64,000 bases of DNA from Acidimicrobiales bacterium. Lineage in GTDB: Bacteria > Actinomycetota > Acidimicrobiia > Acidimicrobiales > SZUA-35. A program made the position numbers and the translations under genes. Shown piece by piece: positions 6,659-48,170 of this stretch. The stretch's first letter is position 1; each line of letters opens with the position of its first letter. The notes under the pieces are model-generated. The model was not told the origin of the DNA and did not search any database. It was given only the letters and a program-made list of their open reading frames with translations. Location: the NCBI GenBank assembly GCA_037969565.1, contig JBBKXQ010000020.1:19180-83179 (forward strand), written 5' to 3'.

Positions 6659-7561
6659 TCAGGGCCGAAGGGGTTTGCGAGCGATCACCGACCGAGCTCG
6701 GCCCGAGAGATCAGCCTCGATTTCGACCTCAGCGAAGCGTCGGCGGGCGAGGTCGGCGATCGGTTCGGTCTGCCAGGGCGCCATCTCCAGCACGAGGGCG
6801 CCGTCATGTCGTAGCCAACGCCCGGATTCGATGACGAGATGTTCGAGGTCTTCGGTGCCCGTTGGACCGGAAAACAACGCGCCGGCCGGTTCCCAACGCT
6901 TCACGCCGTCGGCGAGCGGCTCGGAATCAGCGATGTACGGGGGGTTGCTGACGATGACCGCGATCGTTGTTTCCAAGTCTGACGGGACCGGTTGGAACCA
7001 CGCCCCGAGCGCGGTCCGAATCTTGGAGCCGGCCCGACCGAGTCCGGCGATGTTGGCGCGAGCAACGGTCAACGCATCATCGGACACATCCGTGAGCCAG
7101 ACCTCGACATTCGGAACTTCGACCGCAATCGACAGGCCGATCGCTCCGCTCCCGGTGCCGAGGTCGAGCACCGTGAGCGGAGAGGCGACCCCCTTCATCC
7201 TCCGGAGCTCGGCGATGGCGAGGCCGGCCACGATCTCGGTTTCGGGTCGGGGGATCAACACCCGCTGATCGATGAACAGATCCAGCGTTCGGAAACCCCA
7301 GCTACCGACGACATATTGAATCGGCTCGCCTCCGAGGCGTCGAGCGACTCGCTCGTCGAACGACGCCACACCCCGAATGGTTGCCAACTGACCGAGGCCC
7401 AACGCGAACTCGGCGCCCTCGTAGCCCGAACACTCCTCCACGATTCGACGTGCGCTGGTCTCGGGCTCGTCGACGCCGGCACCGGCGAATCGAGCCACTG
7501 CCTCGTCGTAGAGTTCCCGCCAACTCACCGTGCCATCGGTGTCGCTGCTCACGTCGTTCAA
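6659..7561 (-). CDS. prmC: release-factor glutamine N5-methyltransferase
   Basis: NPPY motif (VSNPPYI) and SAM motif LDLGTGSGAIG. Start is TTG 7561 (TTGA overlap with the prfA stop) or GTG 7552. The track ORF to 8218 is an artefactual extension over prfA. Confidence 0.88.
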   Translation of the reverse strand: MNDVSSDTDGTVSWRELYDEAVARFAGAGVDEPETSARRIVEECSGYEGAEFALGLGQLATIRGVASFDERVARRLGGEPIQYVVGSWGFRTLDLFIDQRVLIPRPETEIVAGLAIAELRRMKGVASPLTVLDLGTGSGAIGLSIAVEVPNVEVWLTDVSDDALTVARANIAGLGRAGSKIRTALGAWFQPVPSDLETTIAVIVSNPPYIADSEPLADGVKRWEPAGALFSGPTGTEDLEHLVIESGRWLRHDGALVLEMAPWQTEPIADLARRRFAEVEIEADLSGRARSVIARKPLRP

Positions 7562-8640
7562 TCGCCGTCGACGACTTCGATCGCCGCCTGGAGTTGCTTC
7601 GTGCGCTCGTCTTGTACCAACGCGTCGCTGATCTCGTCGAGCTCGCCTTGGAGAACCTTGTCGAGTTTGTAGACGGTGAAACCGATGCGATGGTCGGTCA
7701 CTCGGTTTTCCTTGAAGTTGTAGGTGCGAATCTTCTCGGACCGACCTCCGCCACCAACCTGGTCTTTGCGGGTGGCCGAGCCCTCGGCCCGCACTCGTTC
7801 CTGTTCGGCCTGGAGCAGCCGGGAACGAAGCACCACCATGGCCCGGGCTCGGTTTTGCAGCTGACTCTTCTCGTCTTGCATCGAAACCACGACTCCGGTC
7901 GGCCGATGGACGATGCGGACTGCGGAATCGGTGGTGTTGACGTGCTGACCACCGGCGCCGGATGATCGGAACGTGTCGATCTGAAGATCGTTGGGGTCGA
8001 TCTCGATGTCGACCTCCTCGGCTTCGGGCAGCACGGTGACAGTGGCCGACGACGTGTGGACTCGCCCCTGGGATTCGGTGACCGGCACTCGTTGAACTCG
8101 GTGTGGCCCCGCTTCGAACTTCATCCTCGTCCAAACGCGGTCGCCTTTGAGCATGAAGGTGACGTCGCTGAGCCCTCCGAGATCCGACGGCTGGGAAGCC
8201 ATGAGATCCATCTTCCATCCTTGTCGCTGAGCAAAACCCTGGAACATGTCGAACAGATCGCGAGCGAAGAGGTTCGCCTCTTCGCCCCCCTCGGCGCCCC
8301 GGATTTCGATGATGACGTTGCGATCGTCGTTCGGATCCTTCGGGAGGAGCAGGAGTCGCATCTCCTGTTCGGTCCGTTCGACGCCTGCTTCGGCCTCGGC
8401 GACGAGCGCTCGCAGCGGTTCCCGCTCGGAGCCATCAGCGTCGGCCAGAAGCATCTTGGAGAGTTCGACATCATCGATGTGACCCCGAAGTCGGGATCCG
8501 ACCTCGACGATCTCGCCGAGTTCGCTGTAGCGACGCATCGTCTCGACGTAGCGCTTGTTGTCGGCGACCAACTCGGGGTCGCCGAGACGAGACTCGATTT
8601 CCGCGTGTTCTCGCTCGAATGCGGTCAACCGATCCAACAT
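7558..8640 (-). CDS. prfA: peptide chain release factor 1
   Basis: 360 aa, GGQ motif (SGAGGQHVNTTDSAVR) and the RF1-type P-V-T tripeptide. Confidence 0.97.
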   Translation of the reverse strand: MLDRLTAFEREHAEIESRLGDPELVADNKRYVETMRRYSELGEIVEVGSRLRGHIDDVELSKMLLADADGSEREPLRALVAEAEAGVERTEQEMRLLLLPKDPNDDRNVIIEIRGAEGGEEANLFARDLFDMFQGFAQRQGWKMDLMASQPSDLGGLSDVTFMLKGDRVWTRMKFEAGPHRVQRVPVTESQGRVHTSSATVTVLPEAEEVDIEIDPNDLQIDTFRSSGAGGQHVNTTDSAVRIVHRPTGVVVSMQDEKSQLQNRARAMVVLRSRLLQAEQERVRAEGSATRKDQVGGGGRSEKIRTYNFKENRVTDHRIGFTVYKLDKVLQGELDEISDALVQDERTKQLQAAIEVVDGD

Positions 8641-8716
8641 CGAACCGAGGCTACTGCCCCCACCCGAGCTTCTCGGCCTTCCCCGGGTGTGTGGGTGTGA
8701 TGTTGAGGAGTCGCGC

Positions 8717-9697
8717 TCAAGCCCAGGGAACGGGGATGCTCCTCAGCGAACAGTTCGGCAGCTTCGCAGCCAGTTTCTCGGTGACCGCGTAACGATCCCG
8801 TTCGGGGACGATCACGACGAGCGTTGCCGCGGGGTCGTGTCGATCCCGATAGTCGGCGGCTTCGGGGATCAGGTCGGGATCCACACCAACCGAACACACG
8901 ACGACAATCGGCTCACCCTCGGGCGTTCTGCCTGCTGCCGCGCTCGGCACGTTGCCGAGAACCGTTTCTCGGGGCCGGAGCGGAGGAAGGGCAACGAGAT
9001 CTTCGGCCCCGACCAAACTCGGGGTGTCGAGAAGAAGACTCCGAAGCCACCGTTCCCGGGCCATTCGGTTCAGTGGATGCATCGGAGCCCCCGGTCGGCG
9101 ATGCTCGAGCACGGCCGTCCTCGCCCGCCGGATCGCCGTGTCGGGGTCCATTTGATAGTGAACGAGTCCGTGCAGTTCGCGATCGGCCTGACCGACCCCG
9201 ACATCGATATCCGCACCCTCGTCGCCCCGCGTGACCCTGGCGATCTCGAGGCCCGCAACTTCGGCGACAAGCCGACCGTGGTCGTCAACGGGTCGGGCGC
9301 CGGTGTCGGAAATGAGACCGCCGAATGCCCACTCATCGTCGCCGAGGGTCGGAAGGGCCAAATGCGGAGCTGGCTCCGCTGCGACCAGTTCGGTATCGAC
9401 CACCTGAAAGACATTGCACCGGAGTGGACCCTGAAACAGGCCTGCTCGTCGGGCGAGATGCCCGGCGTCGGTGTCGGCCAACAAGTTGAGCTCGGTGGCC
9501 TTCACCCGATCGGCCCAGATCATGGCCGGACCGAGCATTCGTATCGGCTCATCACCGGCGGCGTAGAAGTAGCCCGCACCCGACGCCAAAAGGCCCCCGG
9601 CAATACCGGGAGCCTGTTGTCCGATCAGTTCTTCTCCGGTGTGGACCCGAACCAGGCCCTGCAGTTTTGCCGCACGGAGACGGCCGACGTCAACCAC
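8717..9697 (-). CDS. hypothetical protein (326 aa) between rpmE and prfA
   Basis: Long ORF co-directional with its neighbours and tightly spaced (45 nt after rpmE, 76 nt before prfA). GTG start. I recognise no family motif. Confidence 0.6.
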   Translation of the reverse strand: MVDVGRLRAAKLQGLVRVHTGEELIGQQAPGIAGGLLASGAGYFYAAGDEPIRMLGPAMIWADRVKATELNLLADTDAGHLARRAGLFQGPLRCNVFQVVDTELVAAEPAPHLALPTLGDDEWAFGGLISDTGARPVDDHGRLVAEVAGLEIARVTRGDEGADIDVGVGQADRELHGLVHYQMDPDTAIRRARTAVLEHRRPGAPMHPLNRMARERWLRSLLLDTPSLVGAEDLVALPPLRPRETVLGNVPSAAAGRTPEGEPIVVVCSVGVDPDLIPEAADYRDRHDPAATLVVIVPERDRYAVTEKLAAKLPNCSLRSIPVPWA

Positions 9698-9742: not shown

Positions 9743-10021
9743 TCAGGCCTCGTCGGTCTCGGCTGACGCTGCGCCCTTGCGTCGACCGAAGCGACGTTCG
9801 AAGCGCTCGACACGACCTGCGGTGTCGATGATCTTCATTTGACCGGTGAAGAAGGGGTGGCTCTCCGCAGAGATTTCCACCTTGTAGAGGGGATAGGTGT
9901 TGCCATCCTCCCACTCGACAGTTTCGTTGGTCTGGATGGTGGACTTCGTCAGAAACGAGAAGTCGGCGCTCTGGTCGAGAAAGACCACAGGGCGGTAAGT
10001 CGGGTGGATGTCAGCCTTCAT
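9743..10021 (-). CDS. rpmE: 50S ribosomal protein L31, type B (Cys-less form)
   Basis: [28 protein letters not shown]...HPFFTG... lacks the CxxC...CxxC zinc ribbon of type A. Confidence 0.9.
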
Positions 10022-10061: not shown

Positions 10062-12185
10062 TCAGAGCGTGGTTGCGTTCGAGATTTCTTTGAGGAGGTC
10101 GGCATTCGATTTGCTTCCCTCGAGACGTTCGACCAGGCGACGGGCAGCGTCAACGGCCGGTCCGTCGGCCTCGTCGACGGCCTCGGCCATCAGCCGGCGA
10201 AGGACGTCCACGGCCTCGAGGTCGTCGGGATCAACCAGTAGATCGGCACTCCGCGTGTGGGACAACTCGAGGTCGAGGTTCGGGAACACGCCTTCATCGG
10301 CGAGCCACGCGTCGAGATGCAACTCGGACGTGGCCGTGCCGCGGAACTCGTCGAACAGCGCCTCGTCGAACACTGCGCCGGTGCCAACGGTGATCGTGGC
10401 GAGGATCGTGAGCGATCCCGCTTCTTCCAGCTTTCGGGCCGATCCGAAGAAACGTTTGGTCGGGTGGAGAGCGCTGGCATCCACGCCCGTGATCGTGCGG
10501 CCGGTTGCGGGTGTGCCGAGACCATACGCACGGGCAATGGCGGTGAGTCCGTCGGCGATGATCACCACATCTTCGCCTGCCTCGACCATCCGTTTCGCCC
10601 GCTCGATGGTGAAATCGGCGAGAGCCACCTGCTCCTCGGGCGGAGCATCGAAGGTTGCCGCCCCGACCTCACCGTGGGTGAGTGCCTGTTCGATGGTGAC
10701 GACCTCTTCGGGCCGCCCGTCGAACTGAAGGACCATCAGGTGGACTTCCGGGTTGTTGGTTTCGATCGCCACGGCAATCTGCTTGATCAGTTCGGCCGAA
10801 CCAGCTTCGGGCGGGGCAACGATGAGACAACGCTGACCTTTACCGATCGGGGCGATCAGATCGACCAGTCGGGCCGCCGACGCCGTCGGAACGTCGAGCA
10901 TTTCGAGGCTGAGCCGTTCGAATGGGTAGACAGGGGTGAGATCTTCGAACCGAACCCGGGCCTTGCTGTCCTCTGGATCGGCGCCGTTGACACTCGTGAT
11001 GGTCTGGAGAGCCGGATTCTTCTCGTTGCGGTTCGCGGGCCGGGCCGTGCCTTCGACCAGGTCGCCTTTGCGGAGACCATGTTGGCGCGCCATCTTCACC
11101 GGCACATACACGTCCTCGGCGGACTGCAGATAGCCGTTGACACGGAGAAAGCCATACCCGTCCTCGCGGAGATCGAGATACCCCGACGACCGGATCGGTT
11201 CGAGGGTCGGGAGCTGTTCCTCGTCCCGATCCCGGCCTCGGCCTCGACGACGACGACGACGGTTTGCCGACTCGGAATCTTCGCCCTGGTTGTTCTCGGC
11301 GTCGACGACAGAGGACTCATTCGAGCCGCCATCGGAACCGGAATCGGTGGACCCACTCTTGGCCGAACTGTCCGATTGAGAGCCACTGCTCTGCGAACCA
11401 CTGCTCTGCGAACCACCGGTCTGGCCGTTTCGGCCCTGATTGCTGCCCCGCTGACTGCTGCCGCCCTGACTGCTGCCGCCCTGACTGCTGCCACCCTGGT
11501 TACCGCCGCCCTGATTGCTGCGGCCTTGACCCGAACGTGGGCTGCCGGTCTCCGTGCCCCCACCGTTCTCGATCTCAGTCTCCCATTCGGCCGGCGGCTC
11601 GCCGCCTTTGCCCCGGCGACGACGCGACGAATTGCCGCCTCCCGGACTCGATTCGCCGCGCTGACCGCCGGCGGGGCTGTTCCGGCCCGACCCCGATCGG
11701 TCTCCACTCGTTCGATCAGCACTCGTTCGATCAGCACTCGTTCGGTCAGCACTCGTTCGGTCAGCACTCGTTCGGTCAGCACTGCTTTGATCAGTCGAGG
11801 TGCGATCCGCTGCGTGATCAGTAGAACCTCGGCCGCCGGCATCCTGAGACGATCCGGGTTGGGCCGTAGACGTCGCGGCCCGTTCGGTCCCGAGACGCTC
11901 GCCGGCAGATTCGGAGCCCTGATCGGCCTCGGGCCGCTCTCCGGAATCAGACTTGCCGGAATCAGACTTGCCGGAATCAGATCGTTCCGACGCGGCGCTA
12001 CTTCCTGCAGTCACACCGCTTCCGGCGGTGACACCCGAGAGTTCCAGAATGCTGTCGATCAGCGCCGCCTTTGTCGCACGGCTTGCGATCTTCCCACCGA
12101 GCGCGGTGATGATGGTCTGGAGTTCGGATTTGTCTTTTTTCTGCAGGTCGACGCGTTCGACGGTCAGGTTGTCGCTCACGGACAC
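10062..12185 (-). CDS. rho: transcription termination factor Rho homologue with a long low-complexity N-terminal insertion and substituted ATPase motifs
   Basis: 707 aa. RNA-binding domain (GYGFLRV, YVPVKMARQHGLRKGDLV) and Rho C-domain scaffold (PIGKGQR, RPEEV, ARAYG, HPTKRFFGSARKLEEAGSLTILAT, VFPNLD) are present. Syntenic position thrC-rho-rpmE. GTG start at 12185 or 12179. Confidence 0.93.
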   Translation of the reverse strand: MSVSDNLTVERVDLQKKDKSELQTIITALGGKIASRATKAALIDSILELSGVTAGSGVTAGSSAASERSDSGKSDSGKSDSGERPEADQGSESAGERLGTERAATSTAQPGSSQDAGGRGSTDHAADRTSTDQSSADRTSADRTSADRTSADRTSADRTSGDRSGSGRNSPAGGQRGESSPGGGNSSRRRRGKGGEPPAEWETEIENGGGTETGSPRSGQGRSNQGGGNQGGSSQGGSSQGGSSQRGSNQGRNGQTGGSQSSGSQSSGSQSDSSAKSGSTDSGSDGGSNESSVVDAENNQGEDSESANRRRRRRGRGRDRDEEQLPTLEPIRSSGYLDLREDGYGFLRVNGYLQSAEDVYVPVKMARQHGLRKGDLVEGTARPANRNEKNPALQTITSVNGADPEDSKARVRFEDLTPVYPFERLSLEMLDVPTASAARLVDLIAPIGKGQRCLIVAPPEAGSAELIKQIAVAIETNNPEVHLMVLQFDGRPEEVVTIEQALTHGEVGAATFDAPPEEQVALADFTIERAKRMVEAGEDVVIIADGLTAIARAYGLGTPATGRTITGVDASALHPTKRFFGSARKLEEAGSLTILATITVGTGAVFDEALFDEFRGTATSELHLDAWLADEGVFPNLDLELSHTRSADLLVDPDDLEAVDVLRRLMAEAVDEADGPAVDAARRLVERLEGSKSNADLLKEISNATTL
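11383..11530. repeat. 15-bp tandem repeats inside rho (encode GSQSS and GGSSQ/GGNQG pentapeptide units)
   Basis: ccactgctctgcgaa x2 plus one degenerate unit, then about six units of ccctgactgctgccg-type sequence. Several units are identical. Confidence 0.9.
11705..11794. repeat. 15-bp tandem repeat x6 inside rho (encodes SADRT pentapeptide units)
   Basis: cactcgttcgatcag x2, cactcgttcggtcag x3, plus one degenerate unit, read directly from the sequence. Confidence 0.95.
11941..11985. repeat. 15-bp tandem repeat x3 inside rho (encodes SGKSD units)
   Basis: ccggaatcagacttg x2 then ccggaatcagatcgt. Confidence 0.9.
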
Positions 12186-12452
12186 ACTCCTCAGAGGTGA
12201 CCTCCGCTCGCGGTGCGAGGGGGCCGGTATTTGCCAGGACGGCTATGGGTTCGGGTCGCACATCAGGCTGGATCAACGCTCAGAGCGCTTCTCAGGCCCA
12301 GACGGCGGAGCTCTGCGATCGTGTGCCTCAGTGAAGAGAAGGCTCCGAACAGCGCGGCTTGGGGGCGAGGGTAGCGACTAGGTGACGCGACTCCCACGTC
12401 TCGGATCGGCCGACATCGCCCCGAGATGAGCCGAATTGCGCTCGCAATGATC

Positions 12453-13841
12453 TCAGAGCCGAGCTTTCAGTTGACGAACGAGGTCGATGACGGAAAGCAG
12501 ATTGTTCGGTGATTCGACGAAGTGTTCGGGTCGATCGAACAACTCCGACAGGAACGATGGGAGCGGGGGGCGCACCCCGGTTGCCTCCTCGACAGCATCG
12601 GGGAACTTCGCCGGATCGGCGGTGGCCAGGGTGATCATCGGCACGCCGGCCACGCCCTGACCTCTCGCCACCCTCGTGCCGACGGCCGTGTGGGGATCGA
12701 TCAACAGCCCCAGACGATCGTGGACGAACGCCATTTCGGAGAGGGTCTCCGCGTCATCCACTCTGCCGGCGTCGAAGTCGGAGCGGAGCCGAACCGTCCA
12801 CTCCTCGGGAATTGCGGCCCGACCGGTTGCACGAAAGGTCGTGAGGATCTCGGTGACGGCGACCCCGTCGCGTCCGCTCGCTTCCCACAAGATCCTCTCG
12901 AAGTTCGAGGAAACCTGGATGTCCATGCTCGGGCTCAACGATGGCATCACCACGTTGGCCAGTAACTCGCCGGTCTCGAAGTATCGGGTGAGAACGTCGT
13001 TTTGATTGCTGGCCACGATCAACCGATCGATCGGGAGGCCCATTTGTTTGGCATACCAACCAGCGAGCACATTGCCGAAGTTGCCTGTCGGCACGCAGAA
13101 GCTCACCGGCCTCTCGCCTCCGGTGAGCCGAAGTGATGCGCTCACGTAATACACGATCTGGGCCATGACCCGGCCCCAGTTGATCGAGTTCACCGCAGCC
13201 AGGCGCAGTTCGGATCTGATCTCGGGGTTGTTGAATGCCTCTTTGACCAGGTCTTGGCAGTCATCGAATGTGCCGGTAACGGCGATGTTGAGGATGTTTG
13301 CAGCATCAACCGTGGTCATCTGGCGACGTTGCACATCACTCACCCGGCCCAGCGGATGGAGCACCGCAGCGGCAACATTCGACCGATGGGCGAGCGCTTC
13401 GATCGCGGCCGAACCCGTGTCGCCCGATGTAGCGGCGAAGACGATGGCGTGCTCGCCTCGGCCGCTCAACTCGTGATCGAGCATTCGTCCGACCAGCTGC
13501 AATGCCACGTCTTTGAATGCGAGCGTCGGACCTTGCGACAGATCGAGGAGAAACTGTTCGTCGCCGAGATCGATCAGCGGGCACACGTCGGCATGCCGGA
13601 ACGGCGCATACGCGTCGTCGACCATGACAACGAACACGTCATGGTCGATCGAGCCCTCGACAAACGGCCACATCACGCGTTTTGCCACCTCGGCGTAGGG
13701 CATGTCGGGGCTGAGTTCGGGCAGGGCCGGGACGGATTCCGGGCAGTACAGACCGCCGTCGGTGGCCAGACCGGCCAGAAGAGCATCGGCGAAGCTCAGC
13801 GTCGGGGCCTGGCCTCGGGTTGACGCGTAGGAGATCACCAT
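12453..13841 (-). CDS. thrC: threonine synthase
   Basis: 462 aa. PLP-Lys motif (GPTLAFKDVALQ) and overall ThrC similarity. Lies 3 nt after the hom stop. Confidence 0.95.
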   Translation of the reverse strand: MVISYASTRGQAPTLSFADALLAGLATDGGLYCPESVPALPELSPDMPYAEVAKRVMWPFVEGSIDHDVFVVMVDDAYAPFRHADVCPLIDLGDEQFLLDLSQGPTLAFKDVALQLVGRMLDHELSGRGEHAIVFAATSGDTGSAAIEALAHRSNVAAAVLHPLGRVSDVQRRQMTTVDAANILNIAVTGTFDDCQDLVKEAFNNPEIRSELRLAAVNSINWGRVMAQIVYYVSASLRLTGGERPVSFCVPTGNFGNVLAGWYAKQMGLPIDRLIVASNQNDVLTRYFETGELLANVVMPSLSPSMDIQVSSNFERILWEASGRDGVAVTEILTTFRATGRAAIPEEWTVRLRSDFDAGRVDDAETLSEMAFVHDRLGLLIDPHTAVGTRVARGQGVAGVPMITLATADPAKFPDAVEEATGVRPPLPSFLSELFDRPEHFVESPNNLLSVIDLVRQLKARL

Positions 13842-13844
13842 CGC

Positions 13845-15143
13845 TCAGTTGATCACGCGCATGACGCTGTGAATGCCGCTGACCACGTCCAGAGCACGAA
13901 GGTCGACAAGCGTGGCCTGCAATGCTCGCTCTTTGGCCTGATGGGTGATGAAGACCAGCCGAGCCTCGGCTTCGAGTCCTTCTTGCTCCATCGAACGGAT
14001 CGAAACACCGTGCTCGCCGAAGATCCCCGACACCCGAGACAGAACCCCCGGCGAATCACGGACTTCGAGATTCACGTAGTACGCACTCTCGAGATCATCG
14101 ATTGCTCGGATCTTGGCCGTGGCCTGAGCATGGCTGCCGGGCACGGTTCGGTGGCTCCCGCGGCGCAGATTGATCGCGGCGTCGACGAGATCACCCAGCA
14201 CAGCAGACGCCGTTGGGAGGCCACCGGCGCCCCGGCCGTAGAACATCAGTTCGCCGGCGGCCCGGCAGTCGACGAAGACGGCGTTGAAGCTGCCTCGAAC
14301 CGAGGCAAGGGGGTGAGCATTCGGAACCATCGAGGGGTGAACGCGAACTCCGACCTCACGACCGTTTTCGTCGTCGAAGACCTCGGCGATGGCCAGCAGC
14401 TTGATCTGGTAGCCCAGCCGGTTGGCGAAAGCGATGTCGGCCTGGGAGACGTTGGAGATGCCCTCGTGATAGACGTCGCCCGCGACCACCCGAGAACCGA
14501 ATGCGATCGACGCCATGATGGCCGCCTTGGCCCCGGCATCGAATCCCTCGACGTCGGCGGTCGGATCCCGTTCGGCGTATCCGAGTTCCTGCGCCTCCTT
14601 CAGAGCTACGGCGTAGTCGGCGCCGTCCTCACTCATCTTGGTGAGGATGAAGTTGGTGGTGCCGTTGACGATGCCCATGACCCGAAGGATGTCTTCTCCG
14701 AGGAGCGACTCTCGCAAGGGGCGAACGATCGGGATGGCGGCAGCAACCGCCGCCTCGAAGAGAATGTCGACTCCGGCCGCGTCGGCTGCGGCGTAGAGCT
14801 CGGAACCGCAATTGGCCAGCAGTTCCTTGTTGGCCGTGATCACCGGCTTGCCGTTGGCCAACGCGGTCAAGATCAGCTCGCGGGCAGGCTCGATTCCACC
14901 GATCACCTCGACGATCACGTCGATGTCGGGGTCGGCAACGAGGGCACGGGCATCGGTGGTGAGCAACTCGCGATCGACCGACCGGTTGCGATCCCTGCTG
15001 GTGCTGCGAACGGCGATGTCGGTGATGACGATGTCGAGTCCGGTGGCAATTCGGATCGCTTCATTCCGCATGTCGAGCAGTTCGACCAGGGAACCCCCAA
15101 CGATGCCGCAACCCAGAACGCCGACCTTCACCTGTTCATTCAC
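13845..15143 (-). CDS. hom: homoserine dehydrogenase
   Basis: NAD motif VGVLGCGIVGG, Hom catalytic domain and C-terminal ACT domain. Start GTG 15143 or 15131. The track ORF to 15500 overlaps lysA and was rejected. Confidence 0.9.
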   Translation of the reverse strand: MNEQVKVGVLGCGIVGGSLVELLDMRNEAIRIATGLDIVITDIAVRSTSRDRNRSVDRELLTTDARALVADPDIDVIVEVIGGIEPARELILTALANGKPVITANKELLANCGSELYAAADAAGVDILFEAAVAAAIPIVRPLRESLLGEDILRVMGIVNGTTNFILTKMSEDGADYAVALKEAQELGYAERDPTADVEGFDAGAKAAIMASIAFGSRVVAGDVYHEGISNVSQADIAFANRLGYQIKLLAIAEVFDDENGREVGVRVHPSMVPNAHPLASVRGSFNAVFVDCRAAGELMFYGRGAGGLPTASAVLGDLVDAAINLRRGSHRTVPGSHAQATAKIRAIDDLESAYYVNLEVRDSPGVLSRVSGIFGEHGVSIRSMEQEGLEAEARLVFITHQAKERALQATLVDLRALDVVSGIHSVMRVIN

Positions 15144-48044: not shown

Positions 48045-48098
48045 AAGCGATTCTTCCGACGGCATCCGGGAGCGGTCGAGACATTGGAACGAATTTTG

Positions 48099-48170
48099 TG
48101 CCCTCGGCAGGATTCGAACCTGCGCTCACGCCTCCGGAGGGCGATGCTCTATCCCCTGAGCTACGAGGGC
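48099..48170 (-). tRNA. tRNA-Arg (anticodon CCG)
   Basis: Hand-folded cloverleaf: acceptor GCCCTCG/CGAGGGC, D arm GCTC-AGGGGATA-GAGC, anticodon loop CT-CCG-GA, T arm GCAGG-TTCGAAT-CCTGC. One T-T mismatch closes the anticodon stem. No encoded CCA. Confidence 0.85.

What the first reader, a model, noticed from the sequence alone, without database searches (positions are those of the whole stretch)
10290..10817. The syntenic Rho homologue has substitutions at every ATPase catalytic motif while the fold is conserved
The gene at 10062-12185 is clearly Rho. It sits in the thrC-rho-rpmE-prfA position. It has the RNA-binding domain (GYGFLRV, YVPVKMARQHGLRKGDLV) and the C-domain scaffold (PIGKGQR, RPEEV, ARAYG, HPTKRFFGSARKLEEAGSLTILAT, DEALFDEFRGT, VFPNLD, SHTR).

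The residues I recall as catalytic in E. coli and M. tuberculosis Rho are all replaced:
- Walker A: APPKAGKT becomes APPEAGSA (aa 457-464, nt 10794-10817).
- Catalytic Glu: (I/V)DERPEEV becomes FDGRPEEV (G490, nt 10716-10718).
- LDSITR becomes ADGLTA.
- Arginine valve/finger stretch: L(S/D)RKIAE(K/R)RVFPA becomes LDAWLADEGVFPN (nt 10290-10310).

Substitutions concentrated in the active site with intact flanks suggest a pseudo-ATPase Rho (an RNA-binding or scaffold role) rather than decay or sequencing error.
Basis: partly seen in the sequence, partly recalled or inferred. Interest (0 to 1): 0.72.

Follow-up and report, generated by a model that had tools for sequence, protein, structure and literature searches.

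The report
Conserved Rho orthologue lacking ATPase residues
The gene in the usual rho position of this Acidimicrobiia genome encodes a well-folded Rho protein that keeps its RNA-binding half but has lost the residues needed to burn ATP, and selection preserves this "dead motor" across a whole clade, so Rho probably does something here other than act as a motor.

Summary
ORF 10062-12185 (-) is the positional orthologue of rho (hom-thrC-rho-rpmE-orf-prfA-prmC). Against E. coli numbering it carries K181E, K184S, T185A, E211G and R269A. It also has a one-residue Q-loop deletion, K326V, and R347A/K348W/K352E/R353G.

This is not error or decay. Twenty-four other cluster representatives (79-88% identical) and five GTDB species carry the same changes, while 96 nearest relatives are canonical. 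Omega is 0.04-0.12. The dead ATPase domain is as conserved within the clade as live ones are among relatives. The predicted fold matches E. coli Rho (TM 0.91).

The OB-fold RNA-binding site, Arg-rich linker and N-terminus are unchanged. 28% of conserved C-terminal-domain columns were replaced on the clade's stem.

Other degenerate catalytic sites occur at the same locus in Acidimicrobiia, apparently independently. One is a second clade of more than 100 clusters (K184A, E211Q).

Best reading: a motor-less, RNA-binding Rho derivative. I could not test whether a second, catalytic rho exists elsewhere in these genomes. I found no published description.

The parts
10062..12185 (-). Complete ORF (GTG start, 707 aa): ATPase-site-degenerate orthologue of transcription termination factor Rho
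   Evidence: NF006886 400 bits (cutoff 315); TIGR00767 397 bits (below its cutoff of 509).
12036..12185 (-). N-terminal helix-bundle region (aa 1-50), conserved with canonical Acidimicrobiia Rho
   Evidence: tblastn gives 58-82% identity to the N-termini at syntenic loci. The TIGR00767 alignment starts at aa 13. See also the consensus.
11211..12035 (-). Low-complexity Ser/Gly/Asp/Arg-rich insertion (aa 51-325) between the N-terminal bundle and the OB fold. It contains 15-nt (pentapeptide) tandem arrays at 11383-11530, 11705-11794 and 11941-11981, a conserved EPPAEWETE motif (11574-11600), and an Arg-rich RRRRRRGRGRDRD motif (11223-11261).
   Evidence: Length, charge and composition are like those of canonical relatives. 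The Arg-rich and EP.A.WE motifs are also conserved in canonical relatives.
10971..11186 (-). OB-fold primary RNA-binding domain (PF07497, aa 334-405) with intact GYGF, DVYV and RNEKNP motifs
   Evidence: PF07497 E 1.3e-23. 34 of 37 columns conserved in canonical relatives are kept. The motifs are the same as in canonical Acidimicrobiia Rho.
10260..10871 (-). RecA-type ATPase-fold domain (PF00006, aa 439-642), fold retained
   Evidence: PF00006 E 1.6e-15. AlphaFold2 pLDDT 92.4, pTM 0.90. Foldseek top hits are E. coli Rho, TM 0.91.
10794..10817 (-). Degenerate Walker A / P-loop APPEAGSA (K181E, K184S, T185A)
   Evidence: E at position 181 in 25/25 members; S or A at 184 in 25/25.
10701..10724 (-). 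FDGRPEEV: catalytic Glu E211 replaced by Gly (G490, nt 10716-10718); Arg valve R212 retained
   Evidence: G and R invariant in the clade
10539..10556 (-). Walker B region ADGLTA: D265 retained; L264A; R269 replaced by A here (S or T in the rest of the clade)
10467..10514 (-). Q-loop (secondary RNA-binding site) with a one-residue deletion (GG to G) and P279Q in most of the clade
10362..10382 (-). R-loop TGAVFDE: S325A, K326V, M327F (the RNA-contacting Lys of the pore loop is lost)
10278..10316 (-). LDAWLADEGVFPN: R347A, K348W, K352E, R353G; F355 retained. Invariant in the clade.
10251..10262 (-). SHTR: Arg finger R366 retained (R645)
12453..13841 (-). thrC (threonine synthase), upstream syntenic neighbour
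9743..10021 (-). rpmE (ribosomal protein L31), downstream syntenic neighbour
7558..8640 (-). prfA (release factor 1), syntenic neighbour

Best explanation
This is the vertically inherited, positional orthologue of rho in a clade of uncultured Acidimicrobiia. It has become an ATPase-dead, non-translocating protein and is kept by purifying selection for a motor-independent role.

Shown here:
- The N-terminal bundle, the Arg-rich disordered linker and the OB-fold primary RNA-binding site are unchanged relative to catalytic relatives.
- The RecA-type domain still folds like Rho.
- The P-loop Lys/Thr, the catalytic Glu, R269 and the RNA-contacting pore-loop residues (Q-loop, K326) are replaced by residues that are themselves fixed in the clade.
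- A burst of change on the clade's stem was followed by constraint as strong as in live Rho.

Inferred:
- The protein can neither hydrolyse ATP nor thread RNA through a ring.
- It still binds C-rich single-stranded RNA through the primary site and still oligomerises. It therefore acts as a passive RNA-binding, possibly RNAP-associated, ring or scaffold. Candidate roles are an RNA chaperone or occluder, or a roadblock or 'stand-by' type factor.

Speculative:
- The invariant Glu at P-loop position 181, together with the retained R212 and R366, may form salt bridges that stand in for the nucleotide phosphates. That would lock subunit interfaces in one state.
For: Homology, motifs and coordinates.

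Clade-wide fixation: 25/25 members carry the changes against 0 of the 96 nearest relatives. Five GTDB species carry them.

Positional orthology: hom-thrC-rho-rpmE-orf326-prfA-prmC is identical at clade loci and at canonical loci.

Selection: NG86 omega is 0.04-0.12 for the rho core, against prfA 0.10-0.12, thrC 0.08-0.21 and hom 0.13-0.17. Within the clade, OB identity is 0.87 and C-terminal-domain identity 0.81. Canonical pairs at the same thrC divergence give 0.75 and 0.79.

Stem acceleration: clade-versus-canonical Rho identity is 0.53-0.56 where canonical pairs give about 0.70-0.72.

Domain asymmetry: 34/37 conserved columns are kept in the OB domain against 107/175 in the C-terminal domain. 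35 of 50 replaced positions are fixed to a single new residue.

Fold: pLDDT 92.4; TM 0.91 to E. coli Rho.

Published experiments: E211A in E. coli Rho and E386A in M. tuberculosis Rho abolish ATP hydrolysis without affecting oligomerisation or ATP/RNA binding. The catalytic site is needed to disrupt elongation complexes (PMC4499133).

Recurrence: other degenerate catalytic sites at the same locus, including a clade of more than 100 clusters with K184A/E211Q, argue for a retained non-motor function.
Against: No biochemistry: ATPase loss, RNA binding and oligomeric state are all inferred from sequence.

The specific cellular role is unknown.

Retention of the trans-acting Arg finger R366, Arg valve R212, Walker B D265 and the adenine-stacking F355 is not explained by a simple 'dead pocket'. 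It fits a partnership with a catalytic subunit at least as well.

I could not search the rest of any of these genomes for a second rho.

dS is saturated (1.1-2.6), so the omega values are approximate.
Confidence: 0.6

Rival explanations
1. It is the non-catalytic subunit of a hetero-hexamer. These genomes would also encode a second, catalytically competent Rho paralogue elsewhere. The dead syntenic copy would assemble with it, as the alpha/B subunits do with the beta/A subunits in F1/V1 ATPases, supplying RNA-loading domains and the trans-acting Arg finger.
For: The Arg finger R366 acts in trans on the neighbouring subunit's site. It is invariant in the clade although the cis catalytic residues are lost. 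This is the pattern seen in F1 alpha (my knowledge).

Genomes with two rho genes are found mainly in Actinomycetota (62 of 116 such genomes), and hetero-hexamers have been suggested (PMC11347177).

Strong constraint on the whole C-terminal domain fits a conserved interface.
Against: No second Rho-like gene in the 64-kb window or in the +/-10 kb flanks of the clade loci.

The five clade genomes each gave one locus among the 80 kept in the GTDB scan.

In three top-120 protein lists, no canonical Rho shares a contig length with a contig that carries a dead Rho, including about 30 Mb-scale contigs of the second clade. These are all weak negatives.

Both pore loops are altered. That would break the RNA-binding staircase of a mixed ring.

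The cis residues R212 and D265 are also retained, which this model does not predict.
Confidence: 0.25
2. It is still an NTPase or translocase that uses non-canonical or relocated catalytic residues. On this reading it is an atypical active Rho, not a pseudo-enzyme.
For: D265, R212, R366 and F355 are kept. New invariant basic residues appear in the domain: N306K in 25/25, L320R in 20/25. Some proteins classed as pseudoenzymes turn out to have relocated catalytic residues (abstract of PMC10211241).
Against: The P-loop Lys, the Mg-coordinating Thr and the water-activating Glu are all missing. P-loop position 181 is an invariant acidic Glu. E211A alone abolishes hydrolysis in two Rho proteins (PMC4499133). 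The RNA pore loops are also changed.
Confidence: 0.06
3. It is a decaying pseudogene, or a sequencing or assembly artefact.
For: None beyond the loss of the catalytic residues. One unrelated genome (L043) has a singleton degenerate Rho that could be in decay.
Against: The ORF is intact at 707 aa. The same substitutions are seen in 24 other clusters from four independent data sources. Omega is 0.04-0.12. The replaced positions are themselves fixed. The fold prediction is confident.
Confidence: 0.02

Closest known systems
Canonical transcription termination factor Rho (E. coli P0AG30; M. tuberculosis Rho, PDB 7oqh; canonical Acidimicrobiia Rho)
   Same: Same gene by descent and position. Same architecture: N-terminal bundle, long insertion as in Actinomycetota, OB-fold primary RNA site, RecA-type domain. 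42-43% identity to E. coli and 55% to canonical Acidimicrobiia Rho. Predicted fold TM 0.91. Walker B Asp, Arg valve and Arg finger are present.
   Different: Lacks the Walker A Lys/Thr, the catalytic Glu, R269 and the pore-loop K326. One-residue Q-loop deletion. 28% of otherwise conserved C-terminal-domain columns replaced. Scores below the TIGR00767 trusted cutoff.
Engineered ATPase-dead Rho mutants (E. coli E211A, M. tuberculosis E386A)
   Same: Loss of the same catalytic Glu. The mutants still oligomerise and bind ATP and RNA, but cannot hydrolyse ATP or release elongation complexes (PMC4499133). This is the best available proxy for what this protein can and cannot do.
   Different: Those are single laboratory substitutions. 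Here the loss is natural and fixed, and comes with loss of the P-loop and pore-loop residues. ATP binding is therefore probably lost as well.
Second Rho paralogues of Actinomycetota and the PVC group ('Group B'; NCBIfam NF041509 Rho short form)
   Same: They are Rho-derived variants found in the same phylum.
   Different: Group B paralogues lack the N-terminal domain but keep the catalytic and bicyclomycin-pocket residues (PMC11347177). This protein is the opposite: full N-terminus, dead catalytic site, ancestral locus. NF041509 scores 368 bits against a cutoff of 628.
Non-catalytic subunits of F1/V1 rotary ATPases (F1 alpha, V1 B; same PF00006 superfamily)
   Same: A RecA-type hexamer subunit with a degenerate ('pseudo-active') nucleotide site that keeps its fold and interface. 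The trans Arg finger is retained (PF00006 hit; pseudo-active sites in V1: PMC10624635 abstract).
   Different: Those subunits work only beside a catalytic paralogue. No such partner has been found here. Rho is normally a homo-hexamer.
Second ATPase-degenerate Rho clade in 'Acidimicrobiaceae' MAGs
   Same: Same locus (argS-lysA-hom-thrC-rho-rpmE). Loss of K184 and E211, R269 to S or A, K348W, R353G, pore loops altered, R366 mostly kept. 27 replaced positions are shared with this clade (odds ratio 3.4, p = 5e-4).
   Different: Different replacement residues (K181R, K184A, E211Q). It sits at a different place in the hom+thrC tree, so it probably arose independently. Only about 44% identical to the window protein.

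Membership tests
Rho termination factor (homology family: TIGR00767 / NF006886 / PF07497 + PF00006) | Significant full-length match to curated Rho models | tested here: inconclusive
   NF006886 scores 400 bits, above its cutoff of 315. TIGR00767 scores 397 bits, below its cutoff of 509. Canonical relatives score 515-696 bits on TIGR00767.
Rho termination factor | OB-fold primary RNA-binding domain with RNP1/2/3-type motifs | tested here: met
   PF07497 E 1.3e-23. GYGF, DVYV and RNEKNP are the same as in canonical Acidimicrobiia Rho; 34/37 conserved columns kept.
Rho termination factor | RecA-type C-terminal domain with the Rho fold | tested here: met
   PF00006 hit. AlphaFold2 pLDDT 92.4; Foldseek TM 0.91 and rmsd 2.0 A to E. 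coli Rho.
Rho termination factor | Ancestral gene position (thrC-rho-rpmE-prfA in Actinomycetota) | tested here: met
   Identical synteny at clade loci and canonical loci
Rho as an ATP-dependent RNA translocase (functional definition) | Walker A GK[T/S] (K184, T185; also K181) | tested here: not met
   APPEAGSA: K181E, K184S, T185A. Replaced in 25/25 clade members, except that one member keeps T185.
Rho as an ATP-dependent RNA translocase | Catalytic Glu (E211) | tested here: not met
   G490, invariant Gly in the clade
Rho as an ATP-dependent RNA translocase | Walker B Asp (D265), Arg valve (R212), Arg finger (R366) | tested here: met
   D545, R491 and R645 are invariant in the clade
Rho as an ATP-dependent RNA translocase | Secondary RNA-binding site: Q-loop and R-loop (K326) | tested here: not met
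   One-residue Q-loop deletion, P279Q, S325A, K326 to V/I/L, M327F
Rho as an ATP-dependent RNA translocase | RNA-stimulated ATP hydrolysis, helicase activity and termination activity | not testable with these tools
   Needs purified protein. Loss is predicted from the E211A/E386A data (PMC4499133).
Rho short-form paralogue (NF041509, 'Group B') | Score above the model cutoff; no N-terminal domain; a second locus | tested here: not met
   368 bits against a cutoff of 628. The full N-terminus is present and the gene is at the ancestral locus.
Non-catalytic partner subunit of a hetero-hexameric RecA-type ring (F1 alpha / V1 B logic) | A catalytic paralogue encoded in the same genome | not testable with these tools
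   None in the window or the flanks.

The most novel reading that the evidence does not exclude
Several lineages of Acidimicrobiia, including this clade, carry only one rho gene, and it encodes a motor-less protein. If so, Rho has repeatedly been turned from an ATP-driven translocase into a passive RNA-binding ring. That would show a selectable, ATP-independent function of Rho. It would also imply that these bacteria end transcription and suppress pervasive transcription by some other means.
Probability: 0.4. Interest if true: 0.88.

Novelty: new variant of a known kind. Interest (0 to 1): 0.76.

Why it matters
Rho is the textbook ring-shaped RNA translocase. All accepted termination models end with ATP-driven action. 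A claim that M. tuberculosis Rho works uncoupled from its motor was refuted experimentally (PMC4499133).

Large surveys call any protein with the RNA-binding and ATPase domains a 'functional Rho'. They describe the ATPase domain as highly conserved, and the only K184 variant reported is K184R (PMC11347177; PMC13613805 uses the same definition).

A naturally ATPase-dead Rho that is conserved, sits at the ancestral locus and has arisen more than once in one class matters for three reasons:
1. Such surveys overcount Rho-dependent termination.
2. It offers a natural separation-of-function allele for asking what Rho does without its motor: RNA binding, RNAP association, scaffolding.
3. It adds a bacterial transcription factor to the short list of RecA-type ring pseudo-ATPases.

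It can be tested directly with recombinant protein.

Tried and rejected
1. Second rho. tblastn of canonical Rho against the whole window found only this gene. Flanks of the clade loci have none. Matching contig lengths across the three top-120 protein lists gave no canonical Rho on a contig that carries a dead Rho. This is only a weak negative.

2. I looked for a 'Rho2 short-form' sequence to use as a probe. Ten short representatives scanned against NCBIfam were all ordinary Rho, none above the NF041509 cutoff.

3. Compensation by intrinsic terminators. A simple hairpin-plus-T-run count gave 3 in 176 kb of clade loci and 8 in 434 kb of canonical loci of similar GC. Both are at or below the shuffle expectation, so the result is uninformative.

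4. Insertion-domain differences. Length, charge and composition do not differ between the clade and canonical relatives.

5. L043 as a second conserved clade. Its nearest database relatives (77% identity) are canonical, so it is a singleton.

6. Two dead-Rho clusters on one 6.44-Mb contig looked like paralogues. The whole argS-to-atp region is duplicated there, so this is most likely two genomes concatenated in assembly.

7. Supplementary tables of PMC11347177 (species with two rho genes) are not held. D'Heygere 2013 (Microbiology 159:1423) is not in the library.

8. Pseudogene and sequencing-error readings were rejected.
Full report
**What is there.** The ORF at 10062-12185 on the minus strand (GTG start, 707 aa) is the only long ORF in the region with protein-family support. 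It matches the Rho RNA-binding domain (PF07497, aa 334-405, E 1.3e-23) and the RecA-type ATPase domain (PF00006, aa 439-642, E 1.6e-15). It matches the NCBIfam Rho model NF006886 at 400 bits (cutoff 315). It falls below the TIGR00767 cutoff (397 against 509), and it is not the short-form paralogue NF041509 (368 against 628). Canonical relatives score 515-696 bits on TIGR00767. The best solved relatives are M. tuberculosis Rho (7oqh, E 9e-97) and E. coli Rho (E about 1e-87). The neighbours are hom, thrC, rpmE (PF01197), an unknown 326-aa ORF, prfA (PCRF/RF-1) and prmC.

**Checking the observation.** In E. coli numbering the changes are as follows:
- Walker A: K181E, K184S, T185A.
- Catalytic Glu: E211G.
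- Walker B region: L264A, R269A.
- Q-loop: a one-residue deletion.
- R-loop: S325A, K326V, M327F.
- E. coli 345-357 stretch: R347A, K348W, K352E, R353G.

Three catalytic elements are not lost. Walker B D265, Arg valve R212 and Arg finger R366 (the R of SHTR) are present, as is F355.

**Is it error, decay or a real state?** A search of the 5.8-billion-protein collection with the core (aa 326-707) gave 24 cluster representatives at 79-88% identity. After a sharp gap came canonical Acidimicrobiia Rho at 58% identity or less.
- All 24 carry the same replacements: APPE[AS]G[SA].., FDGRPE, ADGLT.I, TG.[VIL]FD, LDAWLADEG[VI]FP.
- All 96 following sequences have GKT, DERPEE and ITRL, apart from a few single-residue variants.
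- In a library clustered at 50% identity, the clade is a single representative at 649 bits, and the next hit scores 430 bits.
- A scan of one genome per GTDB species found five species with this form. All are uncultured Acidimicrobiia/Acidimicrobiales MAGs (L001-L005). The window's own genome is not among them; the best match is 88%.

**Orthology.** At every clade locus and at dozens of canonical Acidimicrobiia loci the order is hom-thrC-rho-rpmE-orf326-prfA-prmC. Longer flanks show argS-lysA upstream and rpiB-glyA-atp downstream. The gene is therefore the positional orthologue of the catalytic rho of its relatives, not an extra copy at a new site.

**Selection.**
- Nei-Gojobori estimates among the six clade loci give dN 0.06-0.16 and dS 1.1-2.6 (saturated). 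Omega is 0.04-0.12 for the rho core. In the same genomes prfA gives 0.10-0.12, thrC 0.08-0.21 and hom 0.13-0.17.
- At equal thrC divergence (0.68-0.74 identity), clade pairs are 0.87 identical in the OB domain and 0.81 in the C-terminal domain. Canonical pairs give 0.75 +/- 0.07 and 0.79 +/- 0.09.
- Clade-versus-canonical identity is only 0.53-0.56, where canonical pairs at the same neighbour-gene divergence give about 0.70-0.72.
- The pattern is a burst of change on the clade's stem followed by normal or stronger constraint. That is the signature of a change of function, not of decay.

**Where the change fell.**
- Among columns at least 90% conserved in canonical relatives, the OB domain keeps 34 of 37. 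The C-terminal domain keeps 107 of 175 and has 49 fully replaced (Fisher p = 4e-4).
- 35 of the 50 replaced positions are fixed to one new residue.
- The primary RNA-binding motifs (GYGF, DVYV, RNEKNP), the Arg-rich RRRRRRGRGRDRD segment and the N-terminal bundle match those of catalytic relatives. The long insertion has the same length, charge and composition.
- The catalytic residues are over-represented among replaced positions only modestly (5 of 8 against a 28% background, p about 0.04). The accurate description is a broad remodelling of the motor domain that includes the ATP site and both RNA pore loops.
- The fold is kept: AlphaFold2 pLDDT 92.4, pTM 0.90. The top Foldseek matches are E. 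coli Rho chains at TM 0.91 and rmsd 2.0 A.

**Mechanism.**
- Published mutants give the functional baseline. E211A in E. coli Rho and E386A in M. tuberculosis Rho abolish ATP hydrolysis but leave oligomerisation and ATP/RNA binding intact. The catalytic site is required to disrupt duplexes and elongation complexes (PMC4499133).
- This protein lacks that Glu. It also lacks the P-loop Lys and Thr, has an acidic residue at 181, and lacks the pore-loop Lys. I infer that it cannot hydrolyse ATP, probably cannot bind it, and cannot translocate RNA.
- What it can still do, by conservation, is bind RNA at the primary site and assemble through a conserved C-terminal domain.
- I therefore commit to a motor-less RNA-binding Rho ring or scaffold (confidence about 0.6).
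- The retained R212, D265 and R366, next to an invariant E at 181, suggest an internal salt-bridge network that replaces the nucleotide. This is speculation.

**The main rival.** The main rival (about 0.25) is that this is the non-catalytic subunit of a mixed ring with a second, catalytic Rho.
- Retention of the trans-acting Arg finger fits this.
- Genomes with two rho genes are mainly Actinomycetota (62 of 116, PMC11347177).
- I found no second rho in the window or in the flanks, and none on the same contigs in the protein lists. Whole genomes could not be searched.

**Wider context found on the way.** Degenerate catalytic sites at this same locus recur in the class.
- L043 has K181G/K184Q/E211A and is a singleton whose 77%-identical relatives are canonical.
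- P0130 (= L083) has APPETGAST, E211D and R269A.
- P0151 (= L085) has E211G and R366S.
- A clade of more than 100 clusters around P0240 (= L086) is the largest case. About 30 of its members lie on Mb-scale contigs, and some are labelled 'Acidimicrobiaceae bacterium'. Its motifs are GPRRSGAS (K184A, T185S), FLDQRPED (E211Q), R269S/A, altered pore loops and LDRWAAQLGLFP, with R366 mostly kept. A subgroup has only K184A with E211 intact.
- In a hom+thrC neighbour-joining tree these lineages fall in different places among canonical ones. This suggests at least four independent losses. The tree is crude.
- The window's clade and the large clade share 27 replaced positions (odds ratio 3.4, p = 5e-4), including K348W, R353G, A319I and G339A.
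- Among the 150 nearest 50%-identity representatives, 22 lack at least one canonical catalytic residue.

**Comparison with what is known.**
- Two large surveys define 'functional Rho' by the presence of the RNA-binding and ATPase domains. One describes the ATPase domain as highly conserved, with K184R as the only reported K184 variant. It also reports that second 'Group B' copies keep the catalytic residues (PMC11347177; PMC13613805).
- A 2025 review uses 'catalytically inactive' only for the open-ring conformation of Rho, not for a naturally ATPase-dead Rho (PMC12360218).
- A paper on molecular markers of Acidimicrobiia reports a class-specific 4-6 aa insertion in Rho but says nothing about the ATP site (PMC5962788).
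- Searches for pseudo-ATPase or ATPase-dead Rho found nothing.
- D'Heygere et al. 2013 is not in the library, so I cannot exclude a brief mention there.

**Verdict.** This is a real, conserved, naturally ATPase-site-degenerate orthologue of Rho, and one of several such lineages in Acidimicrobiia. It belongs to the Rho family by descent but fails the functional definition at the Walker A motif, the catalytic Glu and the pore loops. I rate it a new variant of a known kind, interest 0.76. The decisive unknown is whether a catalytic rho exists elsewhere in these genomes.

Noticed in passing
L086 (ERZ25068043 ctg12675_28x_c, 3.47 Mb), gene at 8001-9587; proteins P0240 and P0349-P0459: A second and much larger clade of Rho orthologues at the same locus has a degenerate ATP site: GPRRSGAS (K184A), FLDQRPED (E211Q), R269S/A, altered pore loops, LDRWAAQLGLFP. 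It has more than 100 clusters at 90% identity, and about 30 lie on Mb-scale contigs. A subgroup (P0449, P0451-P0454) has lost only K184.
   Followed up: partly
L043:10001-11128 (CALAJV010000011.1): Singleton Acidimicrobiales MAG whose syntenic Rho has K181G, K184Q, E211A and an altered R-loop. Its closest database relatives (77% identity) are canonical. It may be a recent loss or a gene in decay.
   Followed up: partly
L083:8001-9668 (GCA_013003535.1, P0130) and L085:2061-3548 (SRR23261226, P0151): Two more syntenic Rho genes with partial catalytic loss. P0130 has APPETGAST, E211D and R269A. P0151 has E211G and R366S. In all, 22 of the 150 nearest 50%-identity representatives lack at least one canonical catalytic residue.
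   Followed up: partly
clade I (window and P0001-P0024) against clade II (P0240 group): The two dead-Rho clades share 27 replaced positions among 212 conserved columns (odds ratio 3.4, p = 5e-4). Some replacements are identical: K348W, R353G, A319I, G339A, Y295H. Whether this is convergence or shared ancestry is unresolved.
   Followed up: partly
window 8717-9697 (-): A 326-aa ORF between rpmE and prfA has no Pfam match. It is present at the same position in nearly all Acidimicrobiia loci examined (31-58% identity). It is a conserved gene of unknown function inside the rho-rpmE-prfA cluster.
   Followed up: partly
window 11383-11530, 11705-11794, 11941-11981: The Rho insertion domain is built partly from 15-nt tandem arrays that encode pentapeptide repeats: (SADRT)x6, (GGSSQ)x6, (SGSQS) and (KSDSG). 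This suggests the disordered linker grows and shrinks by repeat slippage.
   Followed up: no
window 11574-11600 (EPPAEWETE): A short acidic/aromatic motif (EP.A.WE) inside the otherwise variable insertion is conserved in both dead and canonical Acidimicrobiia Rho. It could be a binding motif.
   Followed up: no
L088 and L089 (ERZ24894577 ctg522469l, 6.44 Mb, positions 5.79 Mb and 1.78 Mb): The whole argS-lysA-hom-thrC-rho-rpmE-atp region occurs twice on one contig, with diverged copies (P0381 and P0370). This is most likely two related genomes concatenated during assembly, not a real rho duplication.
   Followed up: yes
window and 82 related loci: Canonical hairpin-plus-T-run terminators are almost absent in both dead-Rho and canonical-Rho Acidimicrobiia loci (3 per 176 kb and 8 per 434 kb, at or below the shuffle expectation).
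   Followed up: partly
window 12186-12452 and 13841-13845: thrC is followed directly by rho, with no thrB between them. hom and thrC are almost contiguous. From memory, M. tuberculosis has thrB between thrC and rho. The thrB-less order is shared by all Acidimicrobiia loci examined.
   Followed up: no
window 48098-48170 (-): tRNA-Arg(CCG) is the only tRNA and the only Rfam match above gathering score in the 64-kb window.
   Followed up: no
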